64,000 bases of DNA, from contig CAVZJB010000009.1 in the NCBI GenBank assembly GCA_963775425.1, positions 172,485 to 236,484 on the forward strand, read 5' to 3'. The notes beneath the pieces were generated by a model that was not told the DNA's origin, did no database searches, and saw only the letters and a list, made by a program, of their open reading frames with translations. Shown in pieces: positions 7,034 to 44,040 of this stretch; position 1 is the stretch's first letter, and every line of letters starts with the position of its first letter. The DNA comes from an uncultured delta proteobacterium. GTDB lineage: Bacteria > Myxococcota > UBA727 > VGSZ01. The position numbers and the translations under genes are program-made.

Positions 7034-7122
7034 GTCGCCACTCCGGCGCTTGAGCGCGCCACCGCGAGGCGCGGGACGCGCCCGCGCCACCGCCTACGAG
7101 GCAGACGGGTCCCCGCCGGGGG

Positions 7123-8343: not shown

Positions 8344-8387
8344 CGACCGAGCCCCTCCGGGCGGCGAGCGCCCCCCACCGTCGCGCG

Positions 8388-9806
8388 CTACTTCTTGGCG
8401 CGCGCCGCGTTCCTGGCGCGCACCTTCGCCGCTTGGCCTTCCTTGTTCGTCTGCCGCGCGCGCCCGAAGGCCAGGGCGTCGGGCGGCACCTCGTCGGTGA
8501 TGACCGAGCCCGCGGCGACGTACGCGCCGCGCTGGATCTCCACGGGGGCCACCAGGGTCGCGTTGCTGCCGATGAAGACCTCGTCGGCGATGACGGTGGG
8601 GTGCTTGCCGATGCCGTCGTAGTTGCAGGTGATGGTGCCGGCGCCGATGTTGACGCCGCGGCCGATGTCGGCGTCGCCGAGGTACGCGAGGTGGTTGGCC
8701 TTGCTCCCTTTGCCGAGCCGCGTCTTCTTCAGCTCCACGAAGTTGCCGACGTGCGCGCCGTCCTCGAGCACCGCGCCCGGCCTCAGCCGCGCGAACGGCC
8801 CCACGATGCAGCGCGGACCGATGCGAGCGCCGTCGCAGACGCTGTAGGGGTGCACCACCAATCCCTCGTCGACCTGCGTGTCGTGCAGCACGCAGCCCGC
8901 GCCGATCTGCGCTCCCTCGCCGACGGTGGTGTTGCCGGACAACACCGCGTTGGGCCCCACGACGACGTCGTGGTGGAAACGCACGCTGGCGTCGACGTAC
9001 GCGCTCTTCGGGTCCACGAAGGTCACGCCGTCGAGCATGGCGCTGTTGATCACGCGCGCCCGCAAGACCTCGGCGGCCTCGGCGAGCTGGGCGCGGTCGT
9101 TGACGCCGAGGGTCTCGCCCACGGGCACCGCGTACGTCGGCACGCCGCGCCCCTCGGTGCGCGCGAGCGCGACGATGTCCGTGAGGTACAGCTCGCCCTG
9201 CGCGTTGTTCGGCTCGAGCTTGTCGAGCGCGGCGCGGAGGAACGCGGCGTCCACGGCGTAGACGCCCGGGTTGATCTCGTCGACGGCGCGCTCGGCCTCC
9301 GAGGCGTCCCTGTGCTCGACGATGCGTTCGAGGAGGCCGTCGGCGCCGCGCACGATGCGGCCGTAGCCGGTGGGGTCCGGCGCGCGGGCCGTCCACAGCG
9401 CCACCGGAGCGCCCGTTCGCGCGCGCAGGTCCACCAGCCCCGCCAGGTGCTGGCCGGTCAGGAGCGGGCAGTCGCCGTAGACGAGGAGCACCGTGCCGGT
9501 GAAGCCCTCGAGGAGCGGCAGCGCCATCCGCGCCGCGTGCCCGGTGCCCTTGAGCTCGGTCTGGTGCACCGTCTTCACCCGGTTGCCGAAGCGACCGGCC
9601 AGCTCCGCGTCCACGAGGTCGTGCCGGTGGCCGGTGACGACGACGACGGGCGACGCCCCCACGACGAGGACGGACTCCACGGGCCAGGAGACGAGGGGTT
9701 TTCCGCACGCCGGGTGCAGCACCTTGGGGATCGCGCTCTTCATGCGCGTGCCCTTGCCGGCGGCGAGGACGACGGCGGCGACGGGCCCGGACGGGTTGGT
9801 GGCCAT
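8388..9806 (-). CDS. glmU: Bifunctional UDP-N-acetylglucosamine pyrophosphorylase / glucosamine-1-phosphate N-acetyltransferase
   Basis: ATG at 9806 (MATNPSGPVAAVVLAAGKGTRM), LAAGxGTRM nucleotidyltransferase motif, C-terminal hexapeptide acetyltransferase domain, about 472 aa. Track ORF 8388..11018 is over-extended. Confidence 0.93.
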   Translation of the reverse strand: MATNPSGPVAAVVLAAGKGTRMKSAIPKVLHPACGKPLVSWPVESVLVVGASPVVVVTGHRHDLVDAELAGRFGNRVKTVHQTELKGTGHAARMALPLLEGFTGTVLLVYGDCPLLTGQHLAGLVDLRARTGAPVALWTARAPDPTGYGRIVRGADGLLERIVEHRDASEAERAVDEINPGVYAVDAAFLRAALDKLEPNNAQGELYLTDIVALARTEGRGVPTYAVPVGETLGVNDRAQLAEAAEVLRARVINSAMLDGVTFVDPKSAYVDASVRFHHDVVVGPNAVLSGNTTVGEGAQIGAGCVLHDTQVDEGLVVHPYSVCDGARIGPRCIVGPFARLRPGAVLEDGAHVGNFVELKKTRLGKGSKANHLAYLGDADIGRGVNIGAGTITCNYDGIGKHPTVIADEVFIGSNATLVAPVEIQRGAYVAAGSVITDEVPPDALAFGRARQTNKEGQAAKVRARNAARAKK

Positions 9807-9828
9807 GACGCGCAACATAGGCGGTGAT

Positions 9829-9857
9829 TTGACGCGGGGCCAGACACGCGGAATAAC
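9829..9857 (+). promoter_or_regulatory. Candidate sigma70-like promoter in the divergent glmU / DUF4388 intergenic region
   Basis: TTGACG (9829-9834), 17 nt spacer, AATAAC (9852-9857), 10 nt before the ATG at 9867. Weak -10. Sequence-only guess. Confidence 0.2.
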
Positions 9858-9866
9858 TCCGAGGCG

Positions 9867-11168
9867 ATGGCGTCGATAAGCGGCGACGTGTCCCTGATGC
9901 CCATTGGCGATCTGATCATCTGGATCGCCAACCGAGCGTTGAGCGGCACGTTCATGGTGAAGAAGCGTGGGGTCGAGTCGCGGTTCGTGATCCGCGACGG
10001 CAAGCTGTGGCAGGCGGCGTCGTTGGATCCGCGCGAGTACCTCGGCCAGCACCTCATCAACTTCGGCTACATCAGCGAAGAGCAGCTCCAGAAGGCGTTC
10101 GACACGCAGCAGGAGACGCACGTCCCCCTCGGCCGCGTCCTCGTCATGGTCGAGGCGGTGAACCAGGAGCAGCTCGACCGCGTGCTGTTGTTCAAGACGC
10201 GCGAGAGCATGCTCGAGACCATGAGCTGGACCGAGGGCGCCTTCAAGCTCGTCGACGAGGTCCCCGAGACCCGAGAGCTCGACACCACGGTCCCCGTCGA
10301 CCTCCACGAGGCGCACAGCGAGGCGCTCGCCCGGGCCTCGATGTGGAACGAGATCAGGAACGTGTTCCCGTCCGACGCCACGCGCGCCGAGGTGCTCGTC
10401 GACGCCGCGCGGCTCAGCGGCTTCGACAAGAAGCTCGTGATGCTCATGCTGTCCGGCCGCTCCATCGGCGAGGCCAGCCTCGAGCTGCGCTCGATGGACT
10501 TCCAGACCTACGCGCGCCTGTACGACCTCTACAACCGCGGCGCCGTGCGTCCACGGCTGGCGTCGAGCACCGTGCAGACGATGCCCGCGAGCATCCCTGC
10601 GCCGCGGGCGGCCACGCCGATGCCGTTCCGCTCCGACGTCCCGCGCACGAAGACGCCCGAAGGCCAGCGTCCGCCGGCGCAGCCGACGCAGCCGTCGTCG
10701 GCGCACGCCCAGGGCGCGGGGATCGGCGGCTACGTGCTGGTGCGGCCCGAGAAGCCCGAGGAGGCGCCCGGCGTGTTGGTGCCGCCGGAGGCGTCGGACC
10801 CGCAGGCGGCGCTGCGGGTGGCGCTCGCGGGCCGCAGTTGGTCGGATGCCCTGTTGTTGTCCCAGCGCATCCTCGAGCTCGACCCGTTGAACTCCGAGGC
10901 CATCGCGGCCTGGCGGGTCGCCGAGGCGCAGCTCAAGAAGGCGCCCGCCGGCGCCGCGGTGGACATGCGGCAGGTGCCGCGGCTGGCCATGCCGCGCGAG
11001 CAGGTCGCGCTCACCCACCTCACGTCCAAGGAGCGCTACGTCCTGTCGCGCGTGGACGGTCGTCGGTCCCTCCAGCAGATCGCCGCCGTCAGCCCCATCC
11101 AGAAAGACGAGCTCGTGCGCATCGTCAACGCATTCGTGAGCCGCGCCGTGCTCAAATTCGAATCATGA
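9867..11168 (+). CDS. DUF4388 domain-containing protein
   Basis: N-terminal SLMPIGDLIIWIANRALSGTFMVKKRGVESRFVIRDGKL is a classic DUF4388 motif. A second similar segment near the C-terminus (THLTSKERYVLSRVDGRRSLQQIA). ATG at 9867. Confidence 0.7.
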   Translation: MASISGDVSLMPIGDLIIWIANRALSGTFMVKKRGVESRFVIRDGKLWQAASLDPREYLGQHLINFGYISEEQLQKAFDTQQETHVPLGRVLVMVEAVNQEQLDRVLLFKTRESMLETMSWTEGAFKLVDEVPETRELDTTVPVDLHEAHSEALARASMWNEIRNVFPSDATRAEVLVDAARLSGFDKKLVMLMLSGRSIGEASLELRSMDFQTYARLYDLYNRGAVRPRLASSTVQTMPASIPAPRAATPMPFRSDVPRTKTPEGQRPPAQPTQPSSAHAQGAGIGGYVLVRPEKPEEAPGVLVPPEASDPQAALRVALAGRSWSDALLLSQRILELDPLNSEAIAAWRVAEAQLKKAPAGAAVDMRQVPRLAMPREQVALTHLTSKERYVLSRVDGRRSLQQIAAVSPIQKDELVRIVNAFVSRAVLKFES

Positions 11169-11737
11169 GCTCGCGCCTCGCCCTGTCCCTCGCCGTCCTC
11201 GGCTGCGCCGCCGCGGGCTGCGGGATCAACGTGCAGCCCATCGAGGCGTACGACGTCGTCCTCCAGCCCACGCAGGACTGCACGCTCACCGGCTCCACCT
11301 CGCGCGACTGCACCGATGACGCCGACCTCGCCGCGCAGCAGACCAAGGGGCGCTGGGTGTTCGAGGCCGGGCCGGCGGAGAGCTTCACGCTCACCACGGA
11401 GGAGGGCTTCACGCTCCCGGGCATCTACTTCCCCGACGACGCCACGGTGCTGAACGAGGCGCCTTGCATCGGCACCGACGGCTCGTCGCTCTGCTACTTC
11501 GCCCGGCGCAAATTCGAGTCCAGCGACGACCGCAACAACGGCTGCACGACGTTCGGCGAGCTCGTGGCCATCCTGCTGCGCACCGACGCCGAGACCTTCA
11601 GCGGCGTCGTCTCCGACACCGCCGGCACCGACCAGAACTGCGGCACCTCCACGGTGGTCCAACGCATCAACGCCGTGAGCGGCAAGCTGTCGGCGGAGCC
11701 GTCGCTGGCTCGGCAGGAAGCGGCGGCGGCACCATGA
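11165..11737 (+). CDS. Cys-rich lipoprotein, paralog 1 of 3
   Basis: ATG at 11165 overlaps the upstream stop (ATGA). Lipobox LGCAAAGC. 8 Cys. Found by reading the C-terminal part of track ORF 10007..11737. Confidence 0.6.
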   Translation: MSSRLALSLAVLGCAAAGCGINVQPIEAYDVVLQPTQDCTLTGSTSRDCTDDADLAAQQTKGRWVFEAGPAESFTLTTEEGFTLPGIYFPDDATVLNEAPCIGTDGSSLCYFARRKFESSDDRNNGCTTFGELVAILLRTDAETFSGVVSDTAGTDQNCGTSTVVQRINAVSGKLSAEPSLARQEAAAAP

Positions 11738-12243
11738 CGAGCACCGCCGTGGAACGCGCCGTCAAGACGGCCTGCGTCGTCGCGGGGCTCGGCTGCGCGC
11801 TGGGGGCCGCCGGCTGCCGCCTCGACCAGTTCAACTTCTACGACGTCACCCGCACGCCCACCGAGGAGTGCGACATCCTGCCCGAGGGCGAGTTCTGCGA
11901 TCCGGACGCGCTGTCGCCGCCGACGACGGAGACGTGGTCGGTGGAGCGCGTCGACAATGTCGTGCGCGTGTACGTCGACGAAGAGGTCTGGGTGGCGAGC
12001 CCGCCCGGCAACAAGGACGACCCGAACCTCGTGAAAGCCTCCAAGCTCGAGGTCGACACGCGCGATCCGGGGGGCTGCACCAACACCATCACGCGCGACT
12101 TCCAGGTGCTCGCCACCGACGCCGACATCACCGGCCAGCTCCACGAAAAGACGCGCCTCGTCGGCGGGCAGGAGTGCGGCGACACGCCGCGCGGCCTGCG
12201 CACCACCGCGCGCATCGACGGAACCATCGCGGGGGCCCCCTGA
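11734..12243 (+). CDS. Cys-rich lipoprotein, paralog 2 of 3
   Basis: ATG at 11734 (ATGA overlap). Lipobox ALGAAGC. Architecture similar to its neighbours. Confidence 0.6.
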   Translation: MTSTAVERAVKTACVVAGLGCALGAAGCRLDQFNFYDVTRTPTEECDILPEGEFCDPDALSPPTTETWSVERVDNVVRVYVDEEVWVASPPGNKDDPNLVKASKLEVDTRDPGGCTNTITRDFQVLATDADITGQLHEKTRLVGGQECGDTPRGLRTTARIDGTIAGAP

Positions 12244-12788
12244 TGCGTGCCCCCACGTGCGTGCCGGCGCTCGCTGCGCTCCTCGTCGGAGGTGGCCTGG
12301 CGGGGTGTGGGCCCGACAGGATCGACGCCACCTTCACGAGCCGCGTGGTGCAGCACGAGACCTGCAAGACCGTCGGCGACCACCCGCAGGTGTGCACGCG
12401 CGAGGAGTCCGTCACCGACGAGCGCGTCCGCCTCGTCGAGCGCGACGACCAGAACGTCTGGCTGTACGGCATCCCGCGCAACGGGGTCTCCGACCGCGCC
12501 ATCCTCGGCACGCGTGACAGCGCCGGCGGCTACCTCTTCGTGGACCAGGTGGTGCAGGAAAACAGCTCCAGCACCTGCACGCTCACCGACCGCCTCGAGA
12601 TCTCCATCAGCGTCGACCCGGACGCCTCCACCGACAAGATCGGCAGCGACCCGTGCATCTCCCTGCTCGGGCGCGAGAACGAGTCCACGGACAGCTCTCC
12701 CGGTTGCGACAACGTCGACGAGCCCCCGGTGAAGACCGTCCTCGTCGCCAACCGCCGCTGGGAAAAGCCCCTCGACTGCTCCCCGTAG
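12243..12788 (+). CDS. Cys-rich lipoprotein, paralog 3 of 3
   Basis: ATG at 12243 (TGATG overlap). Lipobox GGLAGC. Conserved Cys pattern. Confidence 0.6.
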   Translation: MRAPTCVPALAALLVGGGLAGCGPDRIDATFTSRVVQHETCKTVGDHPQVCTREESVTDERVRLVERDDQNVWLYGIPRNGVSDRAILGTRDSAGGYLFVDQVVQENSSSTCTLTDRLEISISVDPDASTDKIGSDPCISLLGRENESTDSSPGCDNVDEPPVKTVLVANRRWEKPLDCSP

Positions 12789-12822
12789 CAGTGTCCGGGC
12801 GCCCGTGCCGATCGCCCGCTGT

Positions 12823-15678
12823 TCAGTCGCCGGAGGCGTCGAGCACGCTCTGCAGGAACGCCTCGGGCGACGAGAAGATCACGTTCGCGCTGCAGGCGGC
12901 GTCGCCGCTGAAGGCGCCGGCGTCGCGCTCGACGGTGAGCACGCCGCCGTCGTAGGCGATGCGGGAGACGCCCGACTGCGCCGCGGCGCCGGCGTCGACG
13001 TCGAGCTCCAGGGCCCACGGGCCGCCTGCGTCCATCCCGGGGTGATCGAAGGCGTAGCCGGTGTGGATGACGCTCCGGCGCTGGCCGGCGGTGGCGCCGA
13101 GATCGGGCACGTCGTCGAGGAAGTCCACGACCGCGAACGACGTGAACGGCGCGTCGTCGTAGCCGAGGTCCGGCGGCAGGAGCGGATCGGTGAACGCCTC
13201 GGTGACCGTCACCCGCAACGCGCCGGCGTCGCAGGTGCGCTGCTCGACGCGGCGCGAGCGCGAGAGGATGTCCTTGGGGATGGGCATCGAGCGCACGAGG
13301 GCGGGCACGCGCACCGTGGACGGCTCGCTGGTGCGCGCCTGCTTGATCACCACGCGCGAGCCCCACACGTTGCCGTTCGCGAGCTCGGGCCATCCGTCGG
13401 CGACCTCGCGCAGCTCGAAGTTGATGGTGAGCTCCCGGCGCTGCTGCGCGAGCGGCAGCGCGGCGTTCTCGATGCCCTTCCAGTACTCCGCCACCTGCCG
13501 GGTCTCGTCGAAGACGCGCGCGAGCTGATCGTCGGTCAACACCCACGAGCCCTCGGGCAGGAGCGTGGAGCCGCGCACGCGGGTGAGGGCGGTGGTGCCG
13601 TCGTCGTGGAGCACGATGCGATCGACCTCGGGGAGGTTCGGATCGCCGGCCGGCGGGTTGGTGACGCTGAGCGCGCCCTCCTGGGCGTTCACCTCGAGGA
13701 CGGCGGCGCCGTCGGGGTGTCCGGGCGGCAGGATGGTGTAGAGCATCACGCCGTTTCCGATCTCCTTCGAGTCCTGGAAGTTGGCGTGGCACGCGCAGCC
13801 CATGGCGCCCGAGAGGTGGTCGACGTTGGCGAGCTTCCGCTCTTCGAAGCCCTCGACGTCCCAGTACGACGCCCACGTCTCCTTCACGGCGTGCTCGATG
13901 GTCTTTTCGTGCTTGCCGCCGCTCAAGCGGTCCGCGTGGAGGTAGCCGGTGTTGGAGGTGTAGAGCCCGGCGCCGTTGAAGCCCTCGGCGTCCTCGACGT
14001 TCGATGACGAGCGGAAGCGGATGCCCTGCCCGTCGGCGTAGCCGCCGAAGTGATCCTCGACCATGGCGGTGATGGCGGCGAGCGCAACCGGATCCATGGG
14101 CTTGTTGCGGATGAGCCCCATGATGCCGCCCTGCTCGATGACGGTGCGCAGCAGGTCGTCGGGCGCGCGTGAGTCGAGGAGCTGCTGCGGGAAGTCCGGG
14201 CGCTCGGGGTGGCGTGTGTTCCAGCCGTCGACGCCTTCGAGGCCGAGGACGCGCACGTTGGCGTCGGCGGCGAATTGCGGGTCGGCGAGCACGGCCTCGA
14301 TGGTGGGCTTGAGATCGGCGATGTGCTCGACGTAGCCGCGCACGGAGACGGCGAAGGGTCGGTCGGGCGTGTCGATGTCCTCCTGGTCGAGGAGCGCGAG
14401 GAAGCCGCTGGCCTTGCCGCCGAGGATCGGGCGCCAGTGCGCCTCGTCGGCGAAGTCGAGGTCGGTGAGGTCGTAGGCGTAGTCGATGGTGCTGACGTCG
14501 ACGGGCGGCGCGGAGCTCGGCGGCACCACGCTGAGCGCGCGGTATTGGGCGAACTGCGCCTCCGTCATGGCGACGAGCCGCAAGCGATCCGGCGCGAGCG
14601 CCTCGAGGACCACCGGGGCGCGCACGCGCGCGAGCTGGTCGAGCCCCGGGTCGTCGAGGATGCCGGCCTGGAAGGCGTTGGGGATGCCGCGGTTCTTGGC
14701 GAGCAGGTTGATGTGCGACAGCGCCGTCTGCGGGACGGCGGTGACGAGGCCCGTGCACTGCGGCAGGAAGTCGACGAGGTCTTCGCTGACGAGCACGTCG
14801 GTGGAGCGCGCGTCCTGGAAGTTCTCGCCGGCGTGGACCACGCGCAGCCGGCCGGCGACGAGGCCGTCGTTGTAGACCTCCGTCTGCCCGGGGACGGTGA
14901 CGTCGCTGTAGTGGATGAAGCGGGCCGCGAGCGGATCACCGTCGGCGACGAGCTGCTGCAGGAGCTCCTCGTGCTGCGGCGAGCGCACGAGCATCTTGAG
15001 GTTGTCGCCGACCTCGGGCGGGAGCGAGGGCTCGACCATCGCGAACATGTCGACGAGCTCGGCCTTGCTCAAGACGTGCTGGTACTCGAGCTCGATGGCC
15101 CAGGTCTCCGGGACCGTGTCGCGCGCGTCGAAGTGAAGCACGGTGCCGATGCCCATGGTCTTCGGCGTGTCGAACAACGAGAGGTTGTAGAAGTGCGGCG
15201 AGTAGAGCCGGTGGTCGCCGACGAACGCCAGGTCGAGCGGCAGGGGGCGCTGCGCGATGACCTCGCCGTCGGCCCACGACACGATGTCGGCGACGCTCGC
15301 GAAGGAGCGGCCGACGTTCACCGGCGCGATGTCGTCGACGCCGTCGACGACGTGGCCGTTCATGAGGCGAAACCAGTACCACTCGTCGTGCAGGCCGTAC
15401 GCGTCGGAGGCGAGCCAGCGCAGGTTCTCACCGGGCTGCATGAAGCGCGTGATGACGAACTTCACCGCGGTGCTCGACGCCGACGGCGCCGCCACGGCCT
15501 CGAAGTCGTCGAAGGTGGCGAGCGCGCGAACGGTGTGATCGTCGAAGCCGTCGCCCTCGCCTTCCCCCTCGCCCTCGCCCTCGCCTTCGCCCGGGTGCGT
15601 GCCCGGGCAGGCCATGAGACCTGCAGGCAGCAGCAGCAGCAGGGCCAAGCCCCCGATCTTCTTCACGACACCCATCAT
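12823..15678 (-). CDS. Large lipoprotein with PEP-utilising-enzyme mobile (His) domain and a pyruvate-phosphate-dikinase PEP/pyruvate-binding-like domain
   Basis: ATG ATG at 15678 (rc). Lipobox LMAC followed by GEGEGEGEGEGEGDG. TALSHINLLAKNRGIPNAFQAGI matches the PEP-utilisers phospho-His motif. GGKASGFLAL is PPDK_N-like. About 951 aa. Track ORF 12823..15969. Confidence 0.6.
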   Translation of the reverse strand: MMGVVKKIGGLALLLLLPAGLMACPGTHPGEGEGEGEGEGEGDGFDDHTVRALATFDDFEAVAAPSASSTAVKFVITRFMQPGENLRWLASDAYGLHDEWYWFRLMNGHVVDGVDDIAPVNVGRSFASVADIVSWADGEVIAQRPLPLDLAFVGDHRLYSPHFYNLSLFDTPKTMGIGTVLHFDARDTVPETWAIELEYQHVLSKAELVDMFAMVEPSLPPEVGDNLKMLVRSPQHEELLQQLVADGDPLAARFIHYSDVTVPGQTEVYNDGLVAGRLRVVHAGENFQDARSTDVLVSEDLVDFLPQCTGLVTAVPQTALSHINLLAKNRGIPNAFQAGILDDPGLDQLARVRAPVVLEALAPDRLRLVAMTEAQFAQYRALSVVPPSSAPPVDVSTIDYAYDLTDLDFADEAHWRPILGGKASGFLALLDQEDIDTPDRPFAVSVRGYVEHIADLKPTIEAVLADPQFAADANVRVLGLEGVDGWNTRHPERPDFPQQLLDSRAPDDLLRTVIEQGGIMGLIRNKPMDPVALAAITAMVEDHFGGYADGQGIRFRSSSNVEDAEGFNGAGLYTSNTGYLHADRLSGGKHEKTIEHAVKETWASYWDVEGFEERKLANVDHLSGAMGCACHANFQDSKEIGNGVMLYTILPPGHPDGAAVLEVNAQEGALSVTNPPAGDPNLPEVDRIVLHDDGTTALTRVRGSTLLPEGSWVLTDDQLARVFDETRQVAEYWKGIENAALPLAQQRRELTINFELREVADGWPELANGNVWGSRVVIKQARTSEPSTVRVPALVRSMPIPKDILSRSRRVEQRTCDAGALRVTVTEAFTDPLLPPDLGYDDAPFTSFAVVDFLDDVPDLGATAGQRRSVIHTGYAFDHPGMDAGGPWALELDVDAGAAAQSGVSRIAYDGGVLTVERDAGAFSGDAACSANVIFSSPEAFLQSVLDASGD

Positions 15679-15761
15679 GACCCCGCCGGTGTGCAGCCGC
15701 CATGCCCGAGCGATCGGACCGAGCCACGCCGCGTAACGTGATCCATCGGGATCCGCGTCAT

Positions 15762-16105
15762 CGAGTGGACCGTTGATCCGAGCCACCCGGAAGCGGACGG
15801 TGCTACGGCCACACGGCGGAGCGGAAAGGAGCTCCGAGCTCGGCGACGAAGACGCGCGCCGAGTTGAGCGCCGGGGCGCCGAGCTCTCCGCTCCTTTCCG
15901 CTCGCCTGAAGTCCGCGCCGACGTCGCATCGAGGCACGAACCCTGTACGTGCGCTGATAGCGGGATCACAACACCGCTCGGACCCGCCGTTTCCTCACAA
16001 CCTGCAGCGGTTCTTGCGCGCCGACGTGCCTCGCCACGTACTCCGCGCGGCGAGCCACCCTTCGCCGAGTGCTGCTGCGAGCCTTATTTTTCGTCAGCCT
16101 TCAGT
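15762..16105 (+). mobile_element. MITE-like intergenic repeat, copy B
   Basis: Shares a 5-prime block of about 120 bp (including the imperfect palindrome ggagcggaaaggagctccgagctcggcg ... cgccgagctctccgctcctttccgctc) and a 3-prime block of about 105 bp with copy C. The terminal tcag overlaps the TGA stop of the minus gene 16101..17144. Confidence 0.75.
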
Positions 16106-17144
16106 TCGCGGCGCCGGGCGTCGGCGGATCGCGCGGACCCGCGGTGCCGGCGGCGCCGTCGGGGGAGAGGCCGGCGGACACGTCGGCGCCGGCGCCGTCG
16201 AGCGGCAGGTCGTCGGTGACGCTGCCGCAGTCGTCGACGAGGACGACGTCGTCGTCGGCGGCGCTCAGGAGGAAGCTCGCGTGCAGCGCTCCCTCGCCGG
16301 GCTCCTCGTCGGCGAAGATGACCAGGAAGCCGCCGGGGTCGAGCGCCTGCGCGGGGAGCGGCCACGCGCCGAGGCCGGCGGCGTTGTCCGCGAGGCGCAT
16401 CCCGCCGAGCGAGACCGCGGCGGCGCCCGCGTTGAACAGCTCGATCCAGGGCGCGTGCTCGCCGCCCTCGTCGGTGATGCCGGCGACGTTGTCGACGAGG
16501 GCCTCGTTGACGACCACGCCGTCGGGCGTCGTCGGCACGCAGTCGCCCTCGCCTTCTCCCTCGCCTTCGCCTTCTCCTTCGCCTTCGCCCGCGCCGTCGT
16601 TGGGCGCGCCGGGCGTGGGATGTGCGAGCACGGCGAAGGCTCCGTCGACGTCGGGGATGCGCCCGAAGCTCACGTCCGCGCCGAGCGCCGGCAGCGCGAC
16701 GTCGTCGACGATCTCGCCGGCGCTCCTCAACGTGACGTGATCGCCCGAGGCCGACAGCTTGAACGCGAAGTGCGGCTCGGCGGCGCTGCCCTGGCCGGGC
16801 TCGTCGTCGCAGAACACCACGAGGAAGCCGTGGGCCGGCACCACCGCGCCGAGGCTGAAGGGCTGCGGCCCGGAGCCGCTGTCCTCGAGGCTGAACGTCC
16901 CGAGCGCGATGTCCGCGTCGGTGCCGTTGGCGAGCTCGAGCCAATCGTCGAAGTCACCCGCGGCGTCGGCGACGGTCACATCGTTCTTGGACATCAGCTC
17001 ATTGACGGAGAGCGTCGCCGCCGTTCCCCCGTCGACGGGGCCGGGTCCGCCGTCCCCGACCGCGCCCGCGTCGGGACCCGTCGACGTTCTACCGACACAA
17101 CTGACGGCAAGCGCCAGCACCGAAAATGTGATGACGGAGCGCAC
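16101..17144 (-). CDS. Secreted protein with two lamin-tail domains (LTD) joined by a (GE)n linker
   Basis: Two LTD signatures (SVNELMSKND...DWLELANG and VVNEALVDN...WIELFNAG...LGGMRL) separated by GEGEGEGEGEGEGEGD. Probable GTG start at 17144 (MRSVITFSVLALAVSC lipobox). Start is uncertain because there is no in-frame ATG. Confidence 0.6.
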   Translation of the reverse strand: MRSVITFSVLALAVSCVGRTSTGPDAGAVGDGGPGPVDGGTAATLSVNELMSKNDVTVADAAGDFDDWLELANGTDADIALGTFSLEDSGSGPQPFSLGAVVPAHGFLVVFCDDEPGQGSAAEPHFAFKLSASGDHVTLRSAGEIVDDVALPALGADVSFGRIPDVDGAFAVLAHPTPGAPNDGAGEGEGEGEGEGEGEGDCVPTTPDGVVVNEALVDNVAGITDEGGEHAPWIELFNAGAAAVSLGGMRLADNAAGLGAWPLPAQALDPGGFLVIFADEEPGEGALHASFLLSAADDDVVLVDDCGSVTDDLPLDGAGADVSAGLSPDGAAGTAGPRDPPTPGAAN

Positions 17145-17228
17145 ACCGAAGATTAGCCCGCCGAGGAGGATCCCGCTCGTCGGTTGAAATTCGGCGGGAT
17201 ACAAGCGCGCGTCCCCTCGAGGTGTTTC

Positions 17229-18044
17229 ATGGGTTGGGCCGAATCCACGCTGTTCGAAGAGCGGTTGCCGGATCGGTTCCCCAAGCTCGTGAACCTCTAC
17301 GAGAAGGCCAAGCGGGACTTCTGGAACGAGTCCACGGCCATCGACTGGGACCAGCCCCTCACGCTGTCCACCGACGAGCGGCGCGCGCTCGCGCGCATCC
17401 TGAGCATCACCTACTACGGGGAGCGCGCGGCCATGACCATCGCCGGGCAGCTCGTCGCCAGCGTGCCCGACGAGGAGGCCCGGCAGGTGCTCGCCTGCCA
17501 GGTGATCGAGGAGGCCAAGCACGTCGGGGCGTTCCAGAAGCTGCTCAAGCGCCTCGACAAGATCTCGCCGCCCTCGTTCTTTGCCAAGAAGCTGCTCGTC
17601 GACCTCATCGAGACCGACGAGCCCGCGGCCAAGATGGTCGGCATGCACATGTTCGTCGAGAACATCGCCAACCACAGCTTCCATGCGCTCCACGACGCCA
17701 TCGAGGACCCCCTCGTGCGGCAGGTGCTCGACTACGTGGCCCGCGACGAGAAGAAGCACACCGCCATCGGCGTCCTCTATCTCCCCGCGCTCCTCAAGGC
17801 GCTGCCACGCCACAAGCTCGTGTGGCTGGAGATGAAGCAGGTGAAGTGGCTCGGCCTCGGCCTCGGCATGGTGAAGGACGGCTACGAGGACGCCCGCGTC
17901 CTCCAGATCGACCTCGCCTCCGCCGGCCAACGGGCGCTGCGCCAGCACTACCGGCTGCGGGAGCAGCTCGCGACCACCCGGGGCCTCATCGACGTCCCCG
18001 GCTTCGATCGCGTGATCGACCTGATCGGGCGTTGGGCCTCATAG
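17229..18044 (+). CDS. Ferritin-like diiron-carboxylate protein
   Basis: Two ExxH motifs (VIEEAKHV, ARDEKKHT) in helical context. Alternative ATG at 17184. Confidence 0.55.
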   Translation: MGWAESTLFEERLPDRFPKLVNLYEKAKRDFWNESTAIDWDQPLTLSTDERRALARILSITYYGERAAMTIAGQLVASVPDEEARQVLACQVIEEAKHVGAFQKLLKRLDKISPPSFFAKKLLVDLIETDEPAAKMVGMHMFVENIANHSFHALHDAIEDPLVRQVLDYVARDEKKHTAIGVLYLPALLKALPRHKLVWLEMKQVKWLGLGLGMVKDGYEDARVLQIDLASAGQRALRQHYRLREQLATTRGLIDVPGFDRVIDLIGRWAS

Positions 18045-18285
18045 CCGCGTGGCTGGAGCCCTCGGATCTGTGGTGAACATGCCGCAACCGTGGCGTTCTT
18101 ACCGCGGACCGAATTGTCCCGAATCTGGCGCGTTCGGCGCAAACCGTCGGGGTAAATTGACCGCACCCCCGCCTCCGCGATCGCGTCAACATGCAGTCTC
18201 GGGGTTGGCATGGAGGATGCTGTTGGCTGGCTCCACAGACAGCCGGCTGCGTTGACTTCCCCCCAGGTCGATCGGTTGTCTGTGG

Positions 18286-18342
18286 AAGGCCATCTGAAGC
18301 GGCGTCCCCCCCGTGCCGCAAAGATGGCCTTCGTTTTTTTTC
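18286..18342 (+). terminator. Rho-independent terminator-like hairpin with T9 tract
   Basis: aaggccatc (18286-18294) pairs with gatggcctt (18323-18331), with an inner gcggc/gccgc stem, followed by cg + TTTTTTTTT (18334-18342). 44 bp upstream of rph. Confidence 0.5.
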
Positions 18343-18385
18343 CGCGCCGGCGGCGTCCTGCTGTATCCGCGCCCTCGAGGTGACC

Positions 18386-19129
18386 ATGGCTCGCAAGGAC
18401 GGGCGCGCGGCGACGGAGCTGCGGCCGGTGAAATTCGACGTCGGGTTCGTGAAGCACCACGCAGGGAGCGTCCTGGTGAGCTTCGGGGACACGCGGGTGC
18501 TCTGCGTCGCCACCGCCGAGGATCGGGTGCCGCCCTTCCGCCTGGCCTCGGGCGGCGGCTGGGTCACGGCCGAGTACTCCATGCTCCCCGCCTCCACGCA
18601 TGAGCGAAAGCATCGGGAGATCTCCCGCGGCAAGGCCGACGCCCGCTCCGTCGAGATCCAGCGGCTCGTGGCGCGCGCGCTCAGGAACATCGTCGACATC
18701 GACGCCATCGGGCAGCGCTCCATCACCGTCGACTGCGACGTCCTTCAGGCCGACGGCGGCACGCGCACCGCCTCCATCACCGGCGGCTTCGTCGCCCTCG
18801 CGCTGTGCTTGAACGACCTGCAAAAGCGCGGCGTGTCCATGAAGGGCAAGAAGCTCAAGGACGTCCTGCGCGCGCAGGTGGCGGCGGTGTCGCTCGGCAT
18901 CCTCGGCGACGAGATCTTCACGGACCTCAACTACGGCGAAGACTCCAAGGCGGAGACCGACCTCAACCTCGTCGCCCGCAACGACGGCACCATCGTCGAG
19001 ATCCAGGGCACCGCCGAGGGCCACCCGATGAAGCGCGAGCAGCTCTTCGCCGTGGTCGACCAGGGCCTCGCCGCCGTGCGCGAGCTGTGCGCCAAGCAGA
19101 ACGAGGCCCTCGGGGGGATCCTCGGGTGA
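18386..19129 (+). CDS. rph: Ribonuclease PH
   Basis: MARKDGRAATELRPVKFDVGF ... full-length RNase PH homology, ATG at 18386. Confidence 0.93.
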   Translation: MARKDGRAATELRPVKFDVGFVKHHAGSVLVSFGDTRVLCVATAEDRVPPFRLASGGGWVTAEYSMLPASTHERKHREISRGKADARSVEIQRLVARALRNIVDIDAIGQRSITVDCDVLQADGGTRTASITGGFVALALCLNDLQKRGVSMKGKKLKDVLRAQVAAVSLGILGDEIFTDLNYGEDSKAETDLNLVARNDGTIVEIQGTAEGHPMKREQLFAVVDQGLAAVRELCAKQNEALGGILG

Positions 19130-19899
19130 GCGCCGTCCTCGTCCTCGCCACGCAGAACGCGAAGAAGCGGCGCGAGCTCGAGGACCTCGTCGCGGGCGGG
19201 CCGTGGCTCGTGCGCACGCTCGACGACGTCGGCCTCGGCGGCCTCGCGATCGAAGAGACCGGCGCCACCTTCGCCGAAAACGCCCGCATCAAGGCCGACG
19301 CCGTGCTCGCGGCGCTGCCCGAGGGCGAGCGCCGCGAGACCTTCGCCGTCGTCGCCGACGACTCGGGCATCATCGTCGACGCGCTGTCTCCCCCCGCGCG
19401 GCGCGACGCCCCCGAGCTCCCCGGCGCGCCCGCCGGCAGCCGCCACGACGGCCCGGACGCAAAGCCCGGCGTGCGCTCGGCCCGCTTCGCTGCCGACCAC
19501 GGCGTCGAGATGCTCGGGCCCACCGTCGATGACGCCAACAACGCGCTGCTGCTCTTGTTGCTCGAGGCCGTTCCGGACGAGATGCGCGGGGCGCGCTTCG
19601 CCTCCGCCGTGTGCGCCGTCGTCGTCCAGACCGGCGAGCACCTCGAGGCCTTCGGCACCGTCGAGGGCCGCATCGCCCGTGACCTCGAAGGCGACGGCGG
19701 CTTCGGCTACGACCCGCTGTTTCTCCCCGACGAGGCCCCGGGCCGCCGCATGGCCGAGCTCACGCCCGACGGCAAGCACGCCATCTCCCACCGCGGCCGC
19801 GCCATGCGCGCGCTCCTGGCGCAGCTCACGGGCCGCGCGGAGGCCTCCCGCGGGCCCGCCGCGGAGGCGTTCGTCTTCAAGCGCGCGCGGCCCCGCTGA
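19126..19899 (+). CDS. rdgB: Non-canonical purine NTP pyrophosphatase (RdgB/HAM1 family)
   Basis: GTG at 19126 overlaps the rph stop (GTGA). LVLATQNAKKRRE...FGYDPLF...HAISHRGRA motifs. Carries an insertion of about 40 aa relative to typical roughly 200 aa RdgB. Confidence 0.85.
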   Translation: MSAVLVLATQNAKKRRELEDLVAGGPWLVRTLDDVGLGGLAIEETGATFAENARIKADAVLAALPEGERRETFAVVADDSGIIVDALSPPARRDAPELPGAPAGSRHDGPDAKPGVRSARFAADHGVEMLGPTVDDANNALLLLLLEAVPDEMRGARFASAVCAVVVQTGEHLEAFGTVEGRIARDLEGDGGFGYDPLFLPDEAPGRRMAELTPDGKHAISHRGRAMRALLAQLTGRAEASRGPAAEAFVFKRARPR

Positions 19900-19937
19900 C
19901 GCGGCGGCCGGACGGCTGCAAAAGCGCGGCGGCGCGG

Positions 19938-20657
19938 CTACGAGCGGCCGCGGGAGACGGCTTTGGGGTCCAGGCCCTCGCGGACGAGGAGGCCCTTGCC
20001 GCGCTGCTCGATGAAGCCGCGACGCTGGAACTCCGAGAGGGCGCGCGACACCGTCTCGCGCGAGGTGCCGATGCGCGAGGCGATGTGCTGCTGCGTGGGC
20101 ATCTTCTTGATGAGGTGCCCCTCGGGGACGGGGTCGCCCTCTTCTTCACAGCGCTCGAGGAGGAACCGGGCCACGCGACCGTAGACGTCGAGGAGCGCGA
20201 GGTTGCCGATGCTCTCGTCGGCGCGCCGCAGGCGGACGCAGACCTCGGTCATGACGTTGATGGCGATGGTGGGATAGCCGCGCAGCGCCTGGAGGAACTC
20301 GCGGCGCCCGAGGCGCAGCACCAGGGCGTCGGTGAGGCAGGCGACGTTGGCGGAGCGGGGCTCGCCGTCGACCAGCGACATCTCGCCGAAGAAGCTGCCC
20401 GGCCCGAGCGTGGACAGGATGATCTCGCGCCCGTTGTCGCTCCACAACGAGACCTTCACCTCGCCCTCGGCCACGATGTAGAGCGCGTCGCCCGGGTCCG
20501 TGGCGGACACGATCACCGTGTCTTTGGGGTAGTGCTTCTCGGTGATGATCAGCGACAGACGCGCGAGATCGTCGTGGTCGAGCCCCGCGAAGAGCGGGAC
20601 GTCCTTGAGGAGGTCCACGATCTGGCGCGCCCTCGTGTTGGTCGACGTCGATGTCAT
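19938..20657 (-). CDS. Crp/Fnr family transcriptional regulator
   Basis: ATG at 20657 (MTSTSTNTRARQ). cNMP-binding domain (FFGEMSLVDGEPRSANVACL) plus C-terminal HTH (QQHIASRIGTSRETVSRAL). Track ORF 19938..20831 is over-extended. Confidence 0.85.
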   Translation of the reverse strand: MTSTSTNTRARQIVDLLKDVPLFAGLDHDDLARLSLIITEKHYPKDTVIVSATDPGDALYIVAEGEVKVSLWSDNGREIILSTLGPGSFFGEMSLVDGEPRSANVACLTDALVLRLGRREFLQALRGYPTIAINVMTEVCVRLRRADESIGNLALLDVYGRVARFLLERCEEEGDPVPEGHLIKKMPTQQHIASRIGTSRETVSRALSEFQRRGFIEQRGKGLLVREGLDPKAVSRGRS

Positions 20658-20700
20658 GGAACCCTCCGTGCGCGACGCTAACCGTGCGCCGACGGCGCGG

Positions 20701-21039
20701 TCAAGAAGCAGGGCCGTTCCTGGCAAGGGCCTCCCGGACCAGCTCCTCGAGCGCGGCGCGCGCCTCGTCGTCGAACCCCACCAGCTCGATGCCGTACCCG
20801 CCGTCGGCGTTGCGCACCACGCGGCCCTCACCCTGCAAAAAGTGGCGTCCGTCCCTCGTCGTGAGCTGGACGAAGACCCGGGTCCCCACGGGCTTCGCCT
20901 CGGTGGTCGAGATGAACATCCCCGAAACCGACACGTTCAGCGCGTACTCGGTGCGCAGCTCCTCGAGGGCCCCGAAACGGTACTGCACGAGGAGGGGCAC
21001 GTCGACGCGCGGGTGCCGCCGGCGGTTTTGCTCGGTCAC
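20701..21039 (-). CDS. PilZ domain protein
   Basis: GTG at 21039 overlaps the EVE stop (GTGA). RRHPRVDV ... DxSxxGxF-type PilZ motifs. 112 aa. Confidence 0.7.
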   Translation of the reverse strand: MTEQNRRRHPRVDVPLLVQYRFGALEELRTEYALNVSVSGMFISTTEAKPVGTRVFVQLTTRDGRHFLQGEGRVVRNADGGYGIELVGFDDEARAALEELVREALARNGPAS

Positions 21040-21452
21040 CGGGCAAGCTCGAGGATGGCGGCCGCCTCCTCCGGCGTCACCGGGCACACCGAGAGCCGGG
21101 ACTGCTTGACCAGGGCCATGCCCTTCAGGAGCTCGTGCGCCTTGAGCGCGTCGAGGCCGACGGGCCTTTTCAGGGCCCGCTTGGGCACGAGGTCCACGAC
21201 GACCCAGGGCTGCTTCGGGTCGTCGTCGTTGGGGTCCGGGTAGGCCGCCTTCTTCACCTCCGCGATGCCCACGATCTCCCGCGGACCTACCGAGTGGTAG
21301 ATGAAGCAGCCGTCGCCGACCTTCATCGCGCGCAGGTTGTTGCGGGCGGTGTAGTTGCGGACGCCGTCCCAGGCGGTCCCGCCGTCCTTCACGAGGTCGT
21401 CCCAGGAGTACGTCCCCGGCTCGGTCTTCAAGATGAAGCGCGGCGCCGCCAC
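21036..21452 (-). CDS. EVE (PUA-like) domain protein
   Basis: MAAPRFILKTEPGTYSWDDLVKDGGTAWDGVRNYTARNNLRAMKVGDGCFIYHS is a typical EVE domain. 138 aa. Confidence 0.8.
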   Translation of the reverse strand: MAAPRFILKTEPGTYSWDDLVKDGGTAWDGVRNYTARNNLRAMKVGDGCFIYHSVGPREIVGIAEVKKAAYPDPNDDDPKQPWVVVDLVPKRALKRPVGLDALKAHELLKGMALVKQSRLSVCPVTPEEAAAILELAR

Positions 21453-21890
21453 TCAGGGCCTCCCCACCGGCGGCCCGTCGACGAGGAGCGCGCTCCGGGC
21501 CGCGACCACGCGAGCGCGCAGATCGCCGCCGTCCTCGAGGATCTCGACCTCGGTGCCGAAGGCGTCCTCGAGGTACGGCAGGCGCGTGGCGAGCTTGCCC
21601 CAGACCTTCGCGGGGGCCTTGTCGGCGAAGGCGCGCTTGAGGGCGGCGTAGGCGGCGCGATCGACCTCGACGAAGACGCCGTACACCGATCCCTTCGGGT
21701 GCCCGAGCGGCACGGTGAGGACGGCGCGGACGAAGCCGCGGGTGGCGCCGGGCTCGTGGAGCACCACCGTGTCGCTGCCGGCCCGCACGCGGCGCGCGCG
21801 CTCGTCGTCGGAGAGCGACAACACGGCCTCCGGCCAGCGCGCCGACAGCGCCGTCCGCTCACGCTCCTGCACCACGGGCAAGCGTTTCAT
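21453..21890 (-). CDS. Hypothetical protein
   Basis: ATG at 21890. Stop overlaps the EVE start (ATGA). No recognisable family. Confidence 0.5.
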   Translation of the reverse strand: MKRLPVVQERERTALSARWPEAVLSLSDDERARRVRAGSDTVVLHEPGATRGFVRAVLTVPLGHPKGSVYGVFVEVDRAAYAALKRAFADKAPAKVWGKLATRLPYLEDAFGTEVEILEDGGDLRARVVAARSALLVDGPPVGRP

Positions 21891-21937
21891 GCCGGGGACC
21901 CTACGGAGTTGCCACGCGAGGCGTTAGCCTCGTGTCG

Positions 21938-22729
21938 ATGAAGTTTACGCCGAAGCTGCCCCACACGGTGCCCGAGTCGTTGAAGATCGTGAAGCCGGAC
22001 CCGGGGCCGCTCGTCAAGGCGCGGACGCACGAGAAGAAGGCCGAGGTCCTGCGCAAGGACGAGGAGCAAAAGCCGCACCTCGAGTACCTGGAGCGCTGGA
22101 AAGCCCTGGAATTCACGGTGACGCCCATCGAGGGCCGCGCCCGGCACGAGTGGCGCAACAAGCTCGGGGCCGAGCCGCGCGAGCACCAGATCATCGGACA
22201 CCTGATCGCGAGCCTGCCCCGCCCGCGCATGGACGCGCTGTTCCGCCACGAGAACATCGGGAAGCTGAACGTGGCCTTCGGACATCGGGACCTCAGAAAG
22301 ATCGTCGATGACAACGAGCTCCTCCAGGATCTCGGCATCGATTGGCCGACCTTCCTCGACGCGAAGCGCGACTTCAAGTTTCAGCTCGGGATCCAGACCT
22401 ACAAGAGCGCGCAGGCGCTGGCGGTTTACTTGACCGTCGTGCGCGCCGCCTGTGATCCCAAGGTGCGAAAGACGAAGAACTTCGTCACCGACGTCGAGGT
22501 GCTGAAGCTCGCCGGCGACCTGCTGCGCGACGTCACCACGCACATCATCGAGGAGATGCAGGCGGCACACGACTCGTTCTTCGCCGTCGGCGACCGAAAG
22601 CAGGTCGGCGAGGCCTTCCGCGTCGACCGCGCCAGGAAGAGCGGCCGGCCCGTCCCCGCTGCCGACGCCCAAAAGGGCCGCCCGGCGCCCAAGGGCGACC
22701 TCCGCCCCAAAGGCGGCGTCAAGGCGTGA
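21938..22729 (+). CDS. Hypothetical protein
   Basis: ATG at 21938 (GTG at 21932 also in frame). Basic C-terminal tail. No recognisable family. Confidence 0.5.
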   Translation: MKFTPKLPHTVPESLKIVKPDPGPLVKARTHEKKAEVLRKDEEQKPHLEYLERWKALEFTVTPIEGRARHEWRNKLGAEPREHQIIGHLIASLPRPRMDALFRHENIGKLNVAFGHRDLRKIVDDNELLQDLGIDWPTFLDAKRDFKFQLGIQTYKSAQALAVYLTVVRAACDPKVRKTKNFVTDVEVLKLAGDLLRDVTTHIIEEMQAAHDSFFAVGDRKQVGEAFRVDRARKSGRPVPAADAQKGRPAPKGDLRPKGGVKA

Positions 22730-22787
22730 CCGCGGCGGCGGGCAAGCCGCGCCACACGTACGAGCTCCGGCCTGACGCGCGCGCCAC

Positions 22788-22828
22788 GAAAAAAGCGAAG
22801 CGCGCCCCCGAAAGGAGGCGCGCTTCGC
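22788..22828 (-). terminator. Rho-independent terminator for the minus-strand cytochrome c peroxidase gene
   Basis: 12 bp perfect stem gcgaagcgcgcc / ggcgcgcttcgc with an A6 run on the plus strand (T6 on minus) immediately 3-prime of the stop at 22850. Confidence 0.55.
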
Positions 22829-22849
22829 GTTCGGCTCGACGTCAGAGCG

Positions 22850-24859: not shown

Positions 24860-25010
24860 CTGGGCTCCCCTGGGGCTCCTGTGTGGAGCGATCGAAACCG
24901 CCGGCCAGGCTGCGCGATCCATGCCAGCCTAGCAGACCCTCCCGCGCCCTATGGCACGGCATCCAGCTGCGGTCGGTGACGGCGGCACACCGGAGCGCTT
25001 GGCGGCGGCC

Positions 25011-26393: not shown

Positions 26394-26435
26394 GTGCGGA
26401 GCGATACCACGGCGCCTTCCCTTGTCACCGGCGGC

Positions 26436-27998: not shown

Positions 27999-28004
27999 CG
28001 GCCG

Positions 28005-28472
<468 letters not shown>

Positions 28473-42658: not shown

Positions 42659-42660
42659 CG

Positions 42661-44025: not shown

Positions 44026-44040
44026 ACCCACGGACCAAGG

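What the first reader, a model, noticed from the sequence alone, without database searches (positions are those of the whole stretch)
15762..16105. Family of three MITE-like intergenic repeats whose terminal ...cagccttcag supplies TGA stop codons
Copies at 6797-7033 (inverted), 15762-16105 and 28561-29050 share a 5-prime block (ggaccgttgatccgagcc...) and a 3-prime block of about 100 bp ending gccttatttttcgtcagccttcag. In all three, the last bases of the repeat overlap the TGA stop of the abutting gene (trxB, the LTD gene, the GD-repeat lipoprotein). Each copy sits at a gene 3-prime end. Copies B and C contain a 28 bp imperfect palindrome that could form a hairpin and act as a terminator or RNA-stability element.
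Basis: seen in the sequence. Interest (0 to 1): 0.6.

Follow-up and report, generated by a model that had tools for sequence, protein, structure and literature searches.

The report
Decayed IS1182 remnants capping gene ends
The three intergenic repeats are broken, non-autonomous leftovers of an IS1182-family insertion sequence that landed on the last codons of three genes and now supply a TGA stop to each; two of them bracket a 21.5-kb inversion, so this is an ordinary kind of mobile DNA seen in a clear example.

Summary
There are three copies: A at 6803-7018 (minus), B at 15767-16103 and C at 28563-29051. They share a 5' block (65-132 nt, 95-97% identity) and a 3' block (95-142 nt, 85-94%), and their flanks are unrelated. 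Copy C keeps a transposase fragment. Sibling ORFs in the same assembly, one of them on the same 394-kb contig, match the N-terminus of IS1182-family transposase (E down to 7e-20). Each copy has a different internal deletion. The copies are therefore non-autonomous IS1182 derivatives, not classical MITEs: I found no clear terminal inverted repeats and no target-site duplication. Related metagenomic genomes give empty sites for B and for the trxB junction. TrxB and the LTD protein end 1-2 codons earlier than their orthologues, exactly where the element's TGA begins. Joining the flanks restores native-looking ends (…AEHHT*, …GAANTR*). Insertion right at gene ends without a duplication matches the hairpin-directed mode published for IS1272/TnSha1, which belong to the same family. 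Copies A and C are mutually inverted and sit exactly at the breakpoints of a 21.5-kb inversion relative to a relative in which trxB and the cNMP gene are adjacent. The B/C hairpin is real but shows no terminator features. Verdict: a new member of a known kind, of modest interest.

The parts
6803..7018 (-). Copy A, the shortest derivative (216 nt). Its 3' block is 6803-6898 and its 5' block is 6949-7018. It lacks the palindrome and the middle segment.
   Evidence: Its deletions lie between short direct repeats that are single in A: CGCGCCGACGT occurs twice in B, and GCTCCG occurs twice in C.
6803..6805 (+). The trxB stop codon TGA, which is the first three bases of copy A's 3' terminus.
   Evidence: In relative L001 TrxB ends ...AEHHGH-TAG. 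Nucleotide homology stops at GAGCACCAC, directly before this TGA.
15767..16103 (+). Copy B (337 nt). Its 5' block is 15767-15903 and its 3' block is 15982-16103.
   Evidence: The site is empty in relative L006, where the LTD stop is followed after 58 nt by the PPDK_N-like gene.
15815..15906 (+). Long imperfect palindrome inside B's 5' block.
   Evidence: DNA fold -37.9 kcal/mol, z=-4.5, 0 of 200 shuffles as stable.
16101..16103 (-). The LTD gene stop codon TGA, which is the end of copy B.
   Evidence: All 7 aligned orthologues carry 1-4 residues after the conserved ...PTPGAAN, and the window protein stops at that N. L006 reads GCGAAC GAC TGA where the window reads GCGAAC TGA AGGCTGACG.
15707..15766 (-). 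Downstream flank of B. In the LTD reading frame it begins ACT CGA TGA, a likely displaced native stop. It also contains the distal arm (15707-15742) of an inverted repeat whose other arm is the last 33 nt of the LTD gene.
   Evidence: Joining the flanks gives ...PTPGAANTR*. The flanking inverted-repeat alignment scored 23, reached by 2 of 500 shuffles. The reconstructed site folds as one long hairpin with the insertion point at the top of the 5' arm, but its energy z-score is only -1.35.
28563..29051 (+). Copy C, the longest derivative (489 nt). Its 5' block is 28563-28694 and its 3' block is 28921-29051.
28606..28697 (+). The palindrome in C, homologous to the one in B.
   Evidence: DNA fold -35.7 kcal/mol, z=-2.9.
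28810..28923 (+). Remnant of the N-terminal (DUF772) domain of the IS1182-family transposase: LTTNDDACRFIVGDLRPSHDVIARFRVDHGAAFDKLLT.
   Evidence: tblastn: 97% identical to P0001 and 88% to P0002. NCBIfam NF033551 E=0.011 and Pfam PF05598 E=0.11 on the fragment itself. The sibling ORFs match NF033551 with E=7e-20 to 1.6e-11.
28546..28554 (+). AGGCTGACG, an exact inverted copy of bases 4-12 of the 3' terminus, lying 9-17 nt outside C's 5' block. It could be a remnant of a left terminal inverted repeat, or it could be chance.
   Evidence: No equivalent sequence was found in B, and A has only a degenerate GGCTGG.
29049..29051 (-). The stop codon TGA of the DUF7305 'GD' lipoprotein gene, which is the end of copy C.
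   Evidence: Whether the gene was truncated is unresolved.
7019..28562 (.). Segment bounded by the mutually inverted copies A and C. It is inverted relative to relative L001-L003.
   Evidence: L001 is collinear with window 197->6802 and then continues at 28472->19942. In that genome trxB and the cNMP gene are 99 bp apart with no element between them.

Best explanation
The repeats are non-autonomous, internally deleted derivatives of an IS1182-family insertion sequence. Each keeps the left end (a short leader plus the start of the transposase gene) and the right end (about 100-130 bp, including the right terminus). Each has lost most or all of the transposase gene through deletions between short direct repeats. 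The parent element inserted without a target duplication into the extreme 3' ends of host genes, 1-2 codons before the native stop. The most likely mechanism is the structure-directed (hairpin or terminator) insertion described for IS1272/TnSha1 of the same family. Read in the sense of the host gene, the right terminus begins with TGA and has further stops in the other frames within 20 nt, so the interrupted genes are closed at once and lose only 1-2 residues. Copies A and C lie in opposite orientation. Recombination between them, or an intramolecular transposition event, inverted the 21.5 kb between trxB and the cNMP-binding gene. What is shown: the repeat family, the IS1182 ancestry, the empty sites, the shortened genes, and the synteny breakpoints falling at A and C. 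What is inferred: the hairpin-directed mechanism, the direction and mechanism of the inversion, and whether the short forms moved after they were deleted.
For: Repeat family. IS1182 ancestry: the fragment in C is 88-97% identical to ORFs P0001-3 and P0017. Those ORFs match NCBIfam NF033551 (IS1182 transposase, profile positions 15-131) with E=7e-20 to 1.6e-11, and P0002 carries PF05598. P0017 reads from the transposase N-terminus straight into the 3' block (RFLRADVPRHVLRAASH...CFSSAFQ). It lies on a contig of 394,389 bp, the same length as the contig that carries the window's own proteins. P0003 joins the N-terminal domain to a typical transposase C-terminal tail. Every copy has a different internal deletion, with microhomology at A's junctions. 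Empty sites and shortened genes. Joining the flanks restores ...AEHHT* and ...GAANTR*, and no duplicated target is seen. Stops in frames 0/2/1 (A), 0/1/2 (B) and 0/1 (C). Published behaviour of the family: IS1272/TnSha1 insert into hairpins or terminators immediately downstream of genes, make no target duplication, and partly delete the target (PMC4923244; PMC5678879). B's target carries a flanking inverted repeat that ends exactly at the insertion point (2 of 500 shuffles reach its score). Inversion: L001-L003 run from window 6802 directly to 28472 and onward in reverse.
Against: I found no full-length, intact copy or close full-length transposase; the best other hits are fragments at 62% identity or less. 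The DDE domain and the true termini were therefore never seen. Terminal inverted repeats are not demonstrable. Only C has a 9-nt candidate, and it lies outside the shared block, which conflicts with the neat native stops obtained when that stretch is treated as flank. Hairpin targeting rests on one site: the trxB site and the lipoprotein site give non-significant flanking repeats, and the reconstructed folds are not better than shuffles. A second relative (L004/L005) joins window 12720 to 28472. More than one rearrangement has therefore touched the cNMP gene's upstream side, and the direction of the A/C inversion is inferred only from the elements and the restored trxB end. That P0001-3 come from the same assembly is likely but unproven.
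Confidence: 0.75

Rival explanations
1. A classical MITE family. One short deletion derivative with terminal inverted repeats was amplified in trans by a resident transposase. It makes target-site duplications, and its hairpin has been co-opted as a terminator or RNA-stability element.
For: The copies are small and non-coding and occur several times. B and C share a derived 68-nt palindromic insertion at two different loci, 97% identical over 132 nt, which suggests that a defective form spread at least once. All copies sit at gene ends.
Against: No terminal inverted repeats or target duplications were found. Every one of the seven known copies has a different internal structure, which is not the uniform architecture of an amplified MITE. 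No terminator-like or promoter-like site was found. The palindrome is missing from A and lies far from the upstream stop codon. Gene conversion between copies could also explain the feature shared by B and C, since A/B and A/C share other private segments.
Confidence: 0.15
2. A stop-codon-seeking element. The insertion machinery recognises the stop-codon region and places the element's TGA in frame by design, so the in-frame stop in all three copies is a property of the element and not luck or selection.
For: All three junctions have the element's first TGA in frame 0. That is 1 in 27 if the frame were random (own calculation). Both reconstructable targets were cut 3 and 6 nt upstream of a native TGA, and both read AC|AC at the junction.
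Against: There are only three sites. The family's known preference for hairpins next to gene ends already explains the location. With stops in all three frames, the frame hardly matters for the host.
Confidence: 0.07
3. Segmental duplication or a conserved host regulatory or RNA element, not mobile DNA.
For: None beyond the repetition itself.
Against: Similarity stops sharply at both ends, and the neighbouring genes are unrelated. The element is absent from the orthologous sites in three related genomes. Rfam gave no match anywhere in the window. The transposase remnant is present in C.
Confidence: 0.03

Closest known systems
IS1272 and its composite TnSha1 (IS1182 family, staphylococci)
   Same: The transposase family is the same (N-terminal DUF772 region, NCBIfam NF033551). 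Insertions lie immediately at or after gene 3' ends, there is no target-site duplication, and the structure or size of copies is variable. The family is known to target inverted repeats and terminator hairpins (PMC4923244, PMC5678879). B's target shows such a flanking inverted repeat.
   Different: All copies seen here are defective and lack the DDE domain. The 16-bp terminal inverted repeats are not recognisable. At the two reconstructable sites the target seems to be kept, not deleted. The insertion point lies inside the last codons, so the element provides the stop codon. The host is a GC-rich (about 70%) bacterium whose identity I could not determine, not a staphylococcus.
Bacterial MITEs (Correia/NEMIS, RUP, ERIC, Rickettsia RPE, Coxiella QMITE)
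   Same: These are also short, non-autonomous, IS-related repeats in or next to genes. Some alter the ends of proteins or create in-frame fusions (review PMC10969869).
   Different: Classical MITEs have terminal inverted repeats, target duplications and a uniform architecture. These copies have none of the three.
Ac/Ds-type non-autonomous deletion derivatives
   Same: Both ends are kept, and the middle is removed to a different extent in each copy through microhomology.
   Different: That is a eukaryotic hAT system. It is only an analogy for how such derivatives arise.
IS-mediated chromosomal inversions (recombination between inverted IS copies, or intramolecular transposition)
   Same: Two copies in opposite orientation sit exactly at the two breakpoints of an inverted segment.
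   Different: The copies here are short remnants (216 and 489 nt) that share only about 70-95-nt blocks. A second relative shows a different junction, so the history is not a single clean event.

Membership tests
IS1182 family insertion sequence | Transposase with the N-terminal DUF772 (PF05598) region that matches NCBIfam NF033551 | tested here: met
   The fragment in C gives NF033551 E=0.011 and PF05598 E=0.11. ORFs from sibling copies, 88-97% identical to it, give E=7e-20 to 1.6e-11 over profile positions 15-131.
IS1182 family insertion sequence | Intact DDE catalytic domain (PF13751), i.e. an autonomous element | tested here: not met
   No copy in the window has it, and none of the sibling ORFs do. 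No close full-length transposase was found. These are therefore derivatives, not functional members.
IS1182 family insertion sequence | Terminal inverted repeats (about 16 bp in IS1272) | tested here: inconclusive
   The best match between ends is 9/9 nt, seen in C only and lying outside the shared 5' block. A and B show nothing convincing.
IS1182 family insertion sequence | Insertion into palindromes or hairpins without target-site duplication (IS1272-type members) | tested here: inconclusive
   No target duplication at any copy. A flanking inverted repeat at B ends at the insertion point (2 of 500 shuffles). The other sites are not significant, and the reconstructed folds are no better than shuffles.
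MITE | Small, non-coding, multi-copy | tested here: met
   The copies are 216-489 nt with no intact ORF. There are three in the window, at least one more on the same contig, and probably three more in the assembly.
MITE | Terminal inverted repeats and target-site duplications | tested here: not met
MITE | Uniform architecture showing that one short form was amplified in trans | tested here: inconclusive
   Every copy has its own deletion. B and C do share a derived palindromic insertion. The assembly could not be searched at the DNA level.
Intrinsic terminator or known RNA family | GC-rich stem followed by a T-run, or a match to an Rfam model | tested here: not met
   No terminator-like site in 15600-16200. 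No Rfam match in the window at gathering thresholds.

The most novel reading that the evidence does not exclude
The element family may be adapted to land on stop codons. On this reading it recognises the structured DNA at the very end of genes, cuts a few bases upstream of the native stop at a codon boundary, and replaces that stop with its own in-frame TGA, backed up by stops in the other frames. That would be a 'stop-codon-replacing' transposon that minimises harm to its host. All three junctions are in frame, and both reconstructable targets were cut 3-6 nt before a native TGA at an AC|AC step.
Probability: 0.08. Interest if true: 0.6.

Novelty: new member of a known kind. Interest (0 to 1): 0.3.

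Why it matters
This is a clear worked example of how decaying insertion sequences reshape a GC-rich genome. They shorten and re-terminate genes (trxB, an LTD protein, a lipoprotein) and push co-directional genes 340-490 bp apart. They also provide the homology, or the transposition chemistry, for a 21.5-kb inversion that separates trxB from its ancestral neighbour. If the IS1272-like mechanism is confirmed, gene-end and hairpin-directed, duplication-free insertion in the IS1182 family would extend from staphylococci to a distant GC-rich lineage. For annotation, the three stop codons and the C-terminal residues of these genes derive from the element, and the intergenic 'ORFs' here are transposase debris.

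Tried and rejected
1. Two genome-contig scans found nothing. The first used a 22-mer that is invariant in all three copies. The second used an alignment of the transposase remnants. The source genome and its close relatives are not in that collection.

2. The metagenome-contig scan with the same 22-mer gave two hits. Both are 22-32-nt chance matches inside unrelated ORFs.

3. The look-up of encoding contigs returned 'not on record' for the window's cNMP protein and for P0001-3. The DNA of the sibling copies could therefore not be read. The listing of cluster members gave no accession numbers.

4. Rfam and tRNA scans of the window were empty.

5. Remnant ORFs from other organisms were no help for defining termini. 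L009 (from P0040) is a junkyard of integrase, Y1 and IS91 fragments. L010 (from P0036) has a truncated transposase N-terminus with unrelated ends.

6. The C-terminus of the lipoprotein could not be resolved. Homologue tails range from about 10 to 70 residues, and the nearest homologue (47% identity) has a 61-residue Cys-rich tail against 24 residues here. Joining the flanks of the presumed ancestral site restores no stop.

7. I recalled from memory a resemblance between the 3' end and the IS5 inverted repeat (GGAAGGTGCGAATAAG). I could not test it and dropped it in favour of the IS1182 assignment from the profile search.

8. I considered a left terminus at 28545 (AGGCTGACG). It stays ambiguous because treating that stretch as flank gives a native-looking trxB stop.

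9. GC skew was uninformative for dating the inversion.

Full report
**Observation.** blastn of each copy against the whole window gave these matches:
- B vs C 5' block: 132 nt, 97% identity, E=7e-60.
- B vs C 3' block: 142 nt, 90%, E=1e-51.
- A vs C 3' block: 95 nt, 94%, E=8e-35.
- A vs B 5' block: 71 nt, 97%, E=1e-29.

Similarity stops sharply at both ends, and the neighbouring genes are unrelated. The 5' motif GTTGATCCGAGCCACCCGGAAG occurs three times, and the 26-nt 3' terminus occurs twice within three mismatches (copy A differs from it by indels). Shuffled sequence gave zero matches for either. There is no fourth copy in the window. The refined coordinates are A 6803-7018 (minus orientation), B 15767-16103 and C 28563-29051. 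The palindrome in B and C has arms of about 27 nt. It folds at -37.9 kcal/mol (z=-4.5) in B and -35.7 kcal/mol (z=-2.9) in C, and A lacks it. In gene sense all three junctions read C|TGA-A(A)GGCTGACGAAA. That TGA closes trxB (Pyr_redox_2), a two-domain LTD protein and a DUF7305 lipoprotein.

**What the element is.** Copy C has a private middle segment of about 220 nt. In one frame it reads LTTNDDACRFIVGDLRPSHDVIARFRVDHGAAFDKLLT. On its own this fragment gives only weak hits: NCBIfam IS1182 transposase E=0.011 and Pfam DUF772 E=0.11. A search of the large protein collection found only short ORFs that are 88-97% identical to it:
- P0001, P0002 and P0003 are NCBI/ENA singletons on contigs of 726 kb, 1.15 Mb and 669 kb.
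- P0017 lies on a contig of 394,389 bp. That is the same length as the contig carrying the window's own TrxB, peroxiredoxin and cNMP-binding proteins.

These ORFs match the N-terminal third of the IS1182-family transposase model with E=7e-20 to 1.6e-11. P0017 runs from that N-terminal domain directly into the translated 3' block (RFLRADVPRHVLRAASH...CFSSAFQ) and out of the element. P0003 joins the N-terminal domain to a typical transposase C-terminal tail. P0001 joins it to the segment that A and B carry in their middle.

The family therefore has at least four copies on this contig and probably seven or more in the assembly. Each copy has a different internal deletion between a conserved left end and a conserved right end. 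The deletions in A lie between short direct repeats: CGCGCCGACGT occurs twice in B and once in A, and GCTCCG occurs twice in C and once in A. I found no intact copy and no close full-length transposase. These are non-autonomous deletion derivatives of an IS1182-family insertion sequence. They are not uniform MITEs, because no convincing terminal inverted repeats or target duplications are present.

**Empty sites and stop codons.** The 90% identity cluster of the cNMP-binding protein contains metagenomic members, and their contigs could be read.

In relative 1 (L001-L003), trxB is followed after 99 bp by the cNMP gene with no element between them. TrxB there ends ...AEHHGH-TAG. The window's TrxB ends ...AEHH, and nucleotide homology stops at GAGCACCAC, directly before the element's TGA.

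An LTD homologue search showed that all seven aligned orthologues have 1-4 residues after the conserved ...PTPGAAN, whereas the window's protein stops at that N. In relative 3 (L006) the LTD gene is followed after 58 nt by the orthologue of the 951-residue PPDK_N-like gene, so B's site is empty there. L006 reads GCGAAC GAC TGA where the window reads GCGAAC TGA AGGCTGACG.

Joining the sequences on the two sides of the element restores native-looking gene ends...PTPGAANTR* for LTD, and ...AEHHT* for trxB when it is joined to the cNMP-side flank of copy C. Nothing is duplicated at either site. In these two cases the TGA therefore belongs to the element, and the genes lost one or two codons.

In gene sense the right terminus carries stops in all three frames in A and B (TGA, TGA, TAA within 20 nt) and in two frames in C. 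For the lipoprotein the question stays open. Its homologues have very variable tails, and joining the flanks restores no stop.

**How it probably got there.** IS1272 and its composite TnSha1 belong to the IS1182 family. Published work shows that they insert into hairpins, often transcription terminators immediately downstream of genes. They make no target duplication and partly delete or replace the target. A review also notes that other IS1182 members target palindromes (PMC4923244; PMC5678879). The location at gene ends and the missing duplications seen here fit that behaviour.

At B, the last 33 nt of the LTD gene form an imperfect inverted repeat with 15707-15742, and the element sits exactly at the inner end of the first arm. 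The alignment scored 23, a value reached by 2 of 500 shuffles. The other two sites give nothing significant, and the reconstructed targets do not fold better than shuffled sequence. Hairpin targeting is therefore an inference from the family's known behaviour plus one suggestive site.

All three element TGAs are in frame with the host gene. That is 1 in 27 by chance, which is too little evidence to claim a frame-aware mechanism.

**Inversion.** Copies A and C are in opposite orientation (pairs I2, I3, I7, I10). Relative 1 is collinear with window 197->6802 and then continues at 28472 running down to 19942. The 21.5 kb between A and C are therefore inverted relative to that genome, and the breakpoints fall exactly at the two copies. 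The restored trxB end and the 82-nt spacer to the cNMP start argue that the window's ancestor had the trxB-cNMP adjacency with an element between the two genes. Recombination between two inverted copies, or an intramolecular transposition, would give the present structure. A and C share a private 25-nt segment that is 100% identical.

There is a caveat. Relative 2 (L004/L005) joins window 12720 directly to the cNMP gene. At least two rearrangements have therefore used the region upstream of that gene in this group, and the direction of the events cannot be fixed without closer relatives.

**Function of the palindrome.** The palindrome is missing from A. It lies about 200 nt (B) to 350-430 nt (C) downstream of the stop of the gene abutting the 3' block, has no T-run, and gave no terminator-like or promoter-like hit. 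Rfam found nothing in the window. Compared with A it is a 68-nt insertion that repeats the preceding bases in inverted order, inside what was the start of the transposase gene. B and C share it at two different loci. This suggests either that a defective form moved at least once or that gene conversion occurred between copies. A role as a terminator or RNA-stability element cannot be excluded, but nothing supports it.

**Comparison and verdict.** The element works like IS1272-type members of the IS1182 family and is derived from that family. It is not a functional member, because it has no DDE domain. It is not a classical MITE, because it has no terminal inverted repeats, no target duplications and no uniform architecture. 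It is a new member of a known kind, with a clear documented case of element-supplied stop codons and an associated inversion.

**What could not be done.** The source assembly could not be searched at the DNA level. As a result the copy number, the true termini and the frame statistics across all copies remain open.

Noticed in passing
window 42309-44402: A pair of 144-nt inverted repeats (42309-42452 and 44259-44402, 90% complementary) encloses 1.8 kb holding a minus-strand gene. Just inside the arms are two tandem arrays: about 13 copies of the 13-mer GCGCGCCTCCTTG at 42492-42686 and about 25 copies of the 8-mer GAAGGCAA at 44042-44254. It looks like another mobile or invertible structure.
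   Followed up: partly
window 12720-12830 and 28472; loci L004/L005: In a second related genome the block at window 8624-12720 is followed after 13 nt by the cNMP-binding gene. No repeat copy lies at 12790-12823 in the window. The region upstream of the cNMP gene is therefore a junction that differs in all three genomes compared.
   Followed up: partly
window 26680-28005: The stretch between the cNMP gene and the NDH2 gene holds a 386-residue plus-strand lipoprotein-like ORF (26838-27998) with no Pfam hit. It has no counterpart in either relative: one has an 88-residue gene there, and the other has Fer2_BFD plus a histidine kinase.
   Followed up: no
window 15535-15603 and 16539-16607: Both genes flanking copy B carry (Gly-Glu)n linkers encoded by GCCCTCGCCTTC-type repeats (family D9). 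The LTD orthologues have the same GEGEGE linker.
   Followed up: no
outside the window, same 394,389-bp contig (protein P0017): A fourth copy of the element is implied by a 171-residue ORF that reads from the transposase N-terminal domain through the 3' block and about 40 residues into the flank. By back-translation its end (…SSAFQ) fits GCC TTT CAG, as in copy A.
   Followed up: partly
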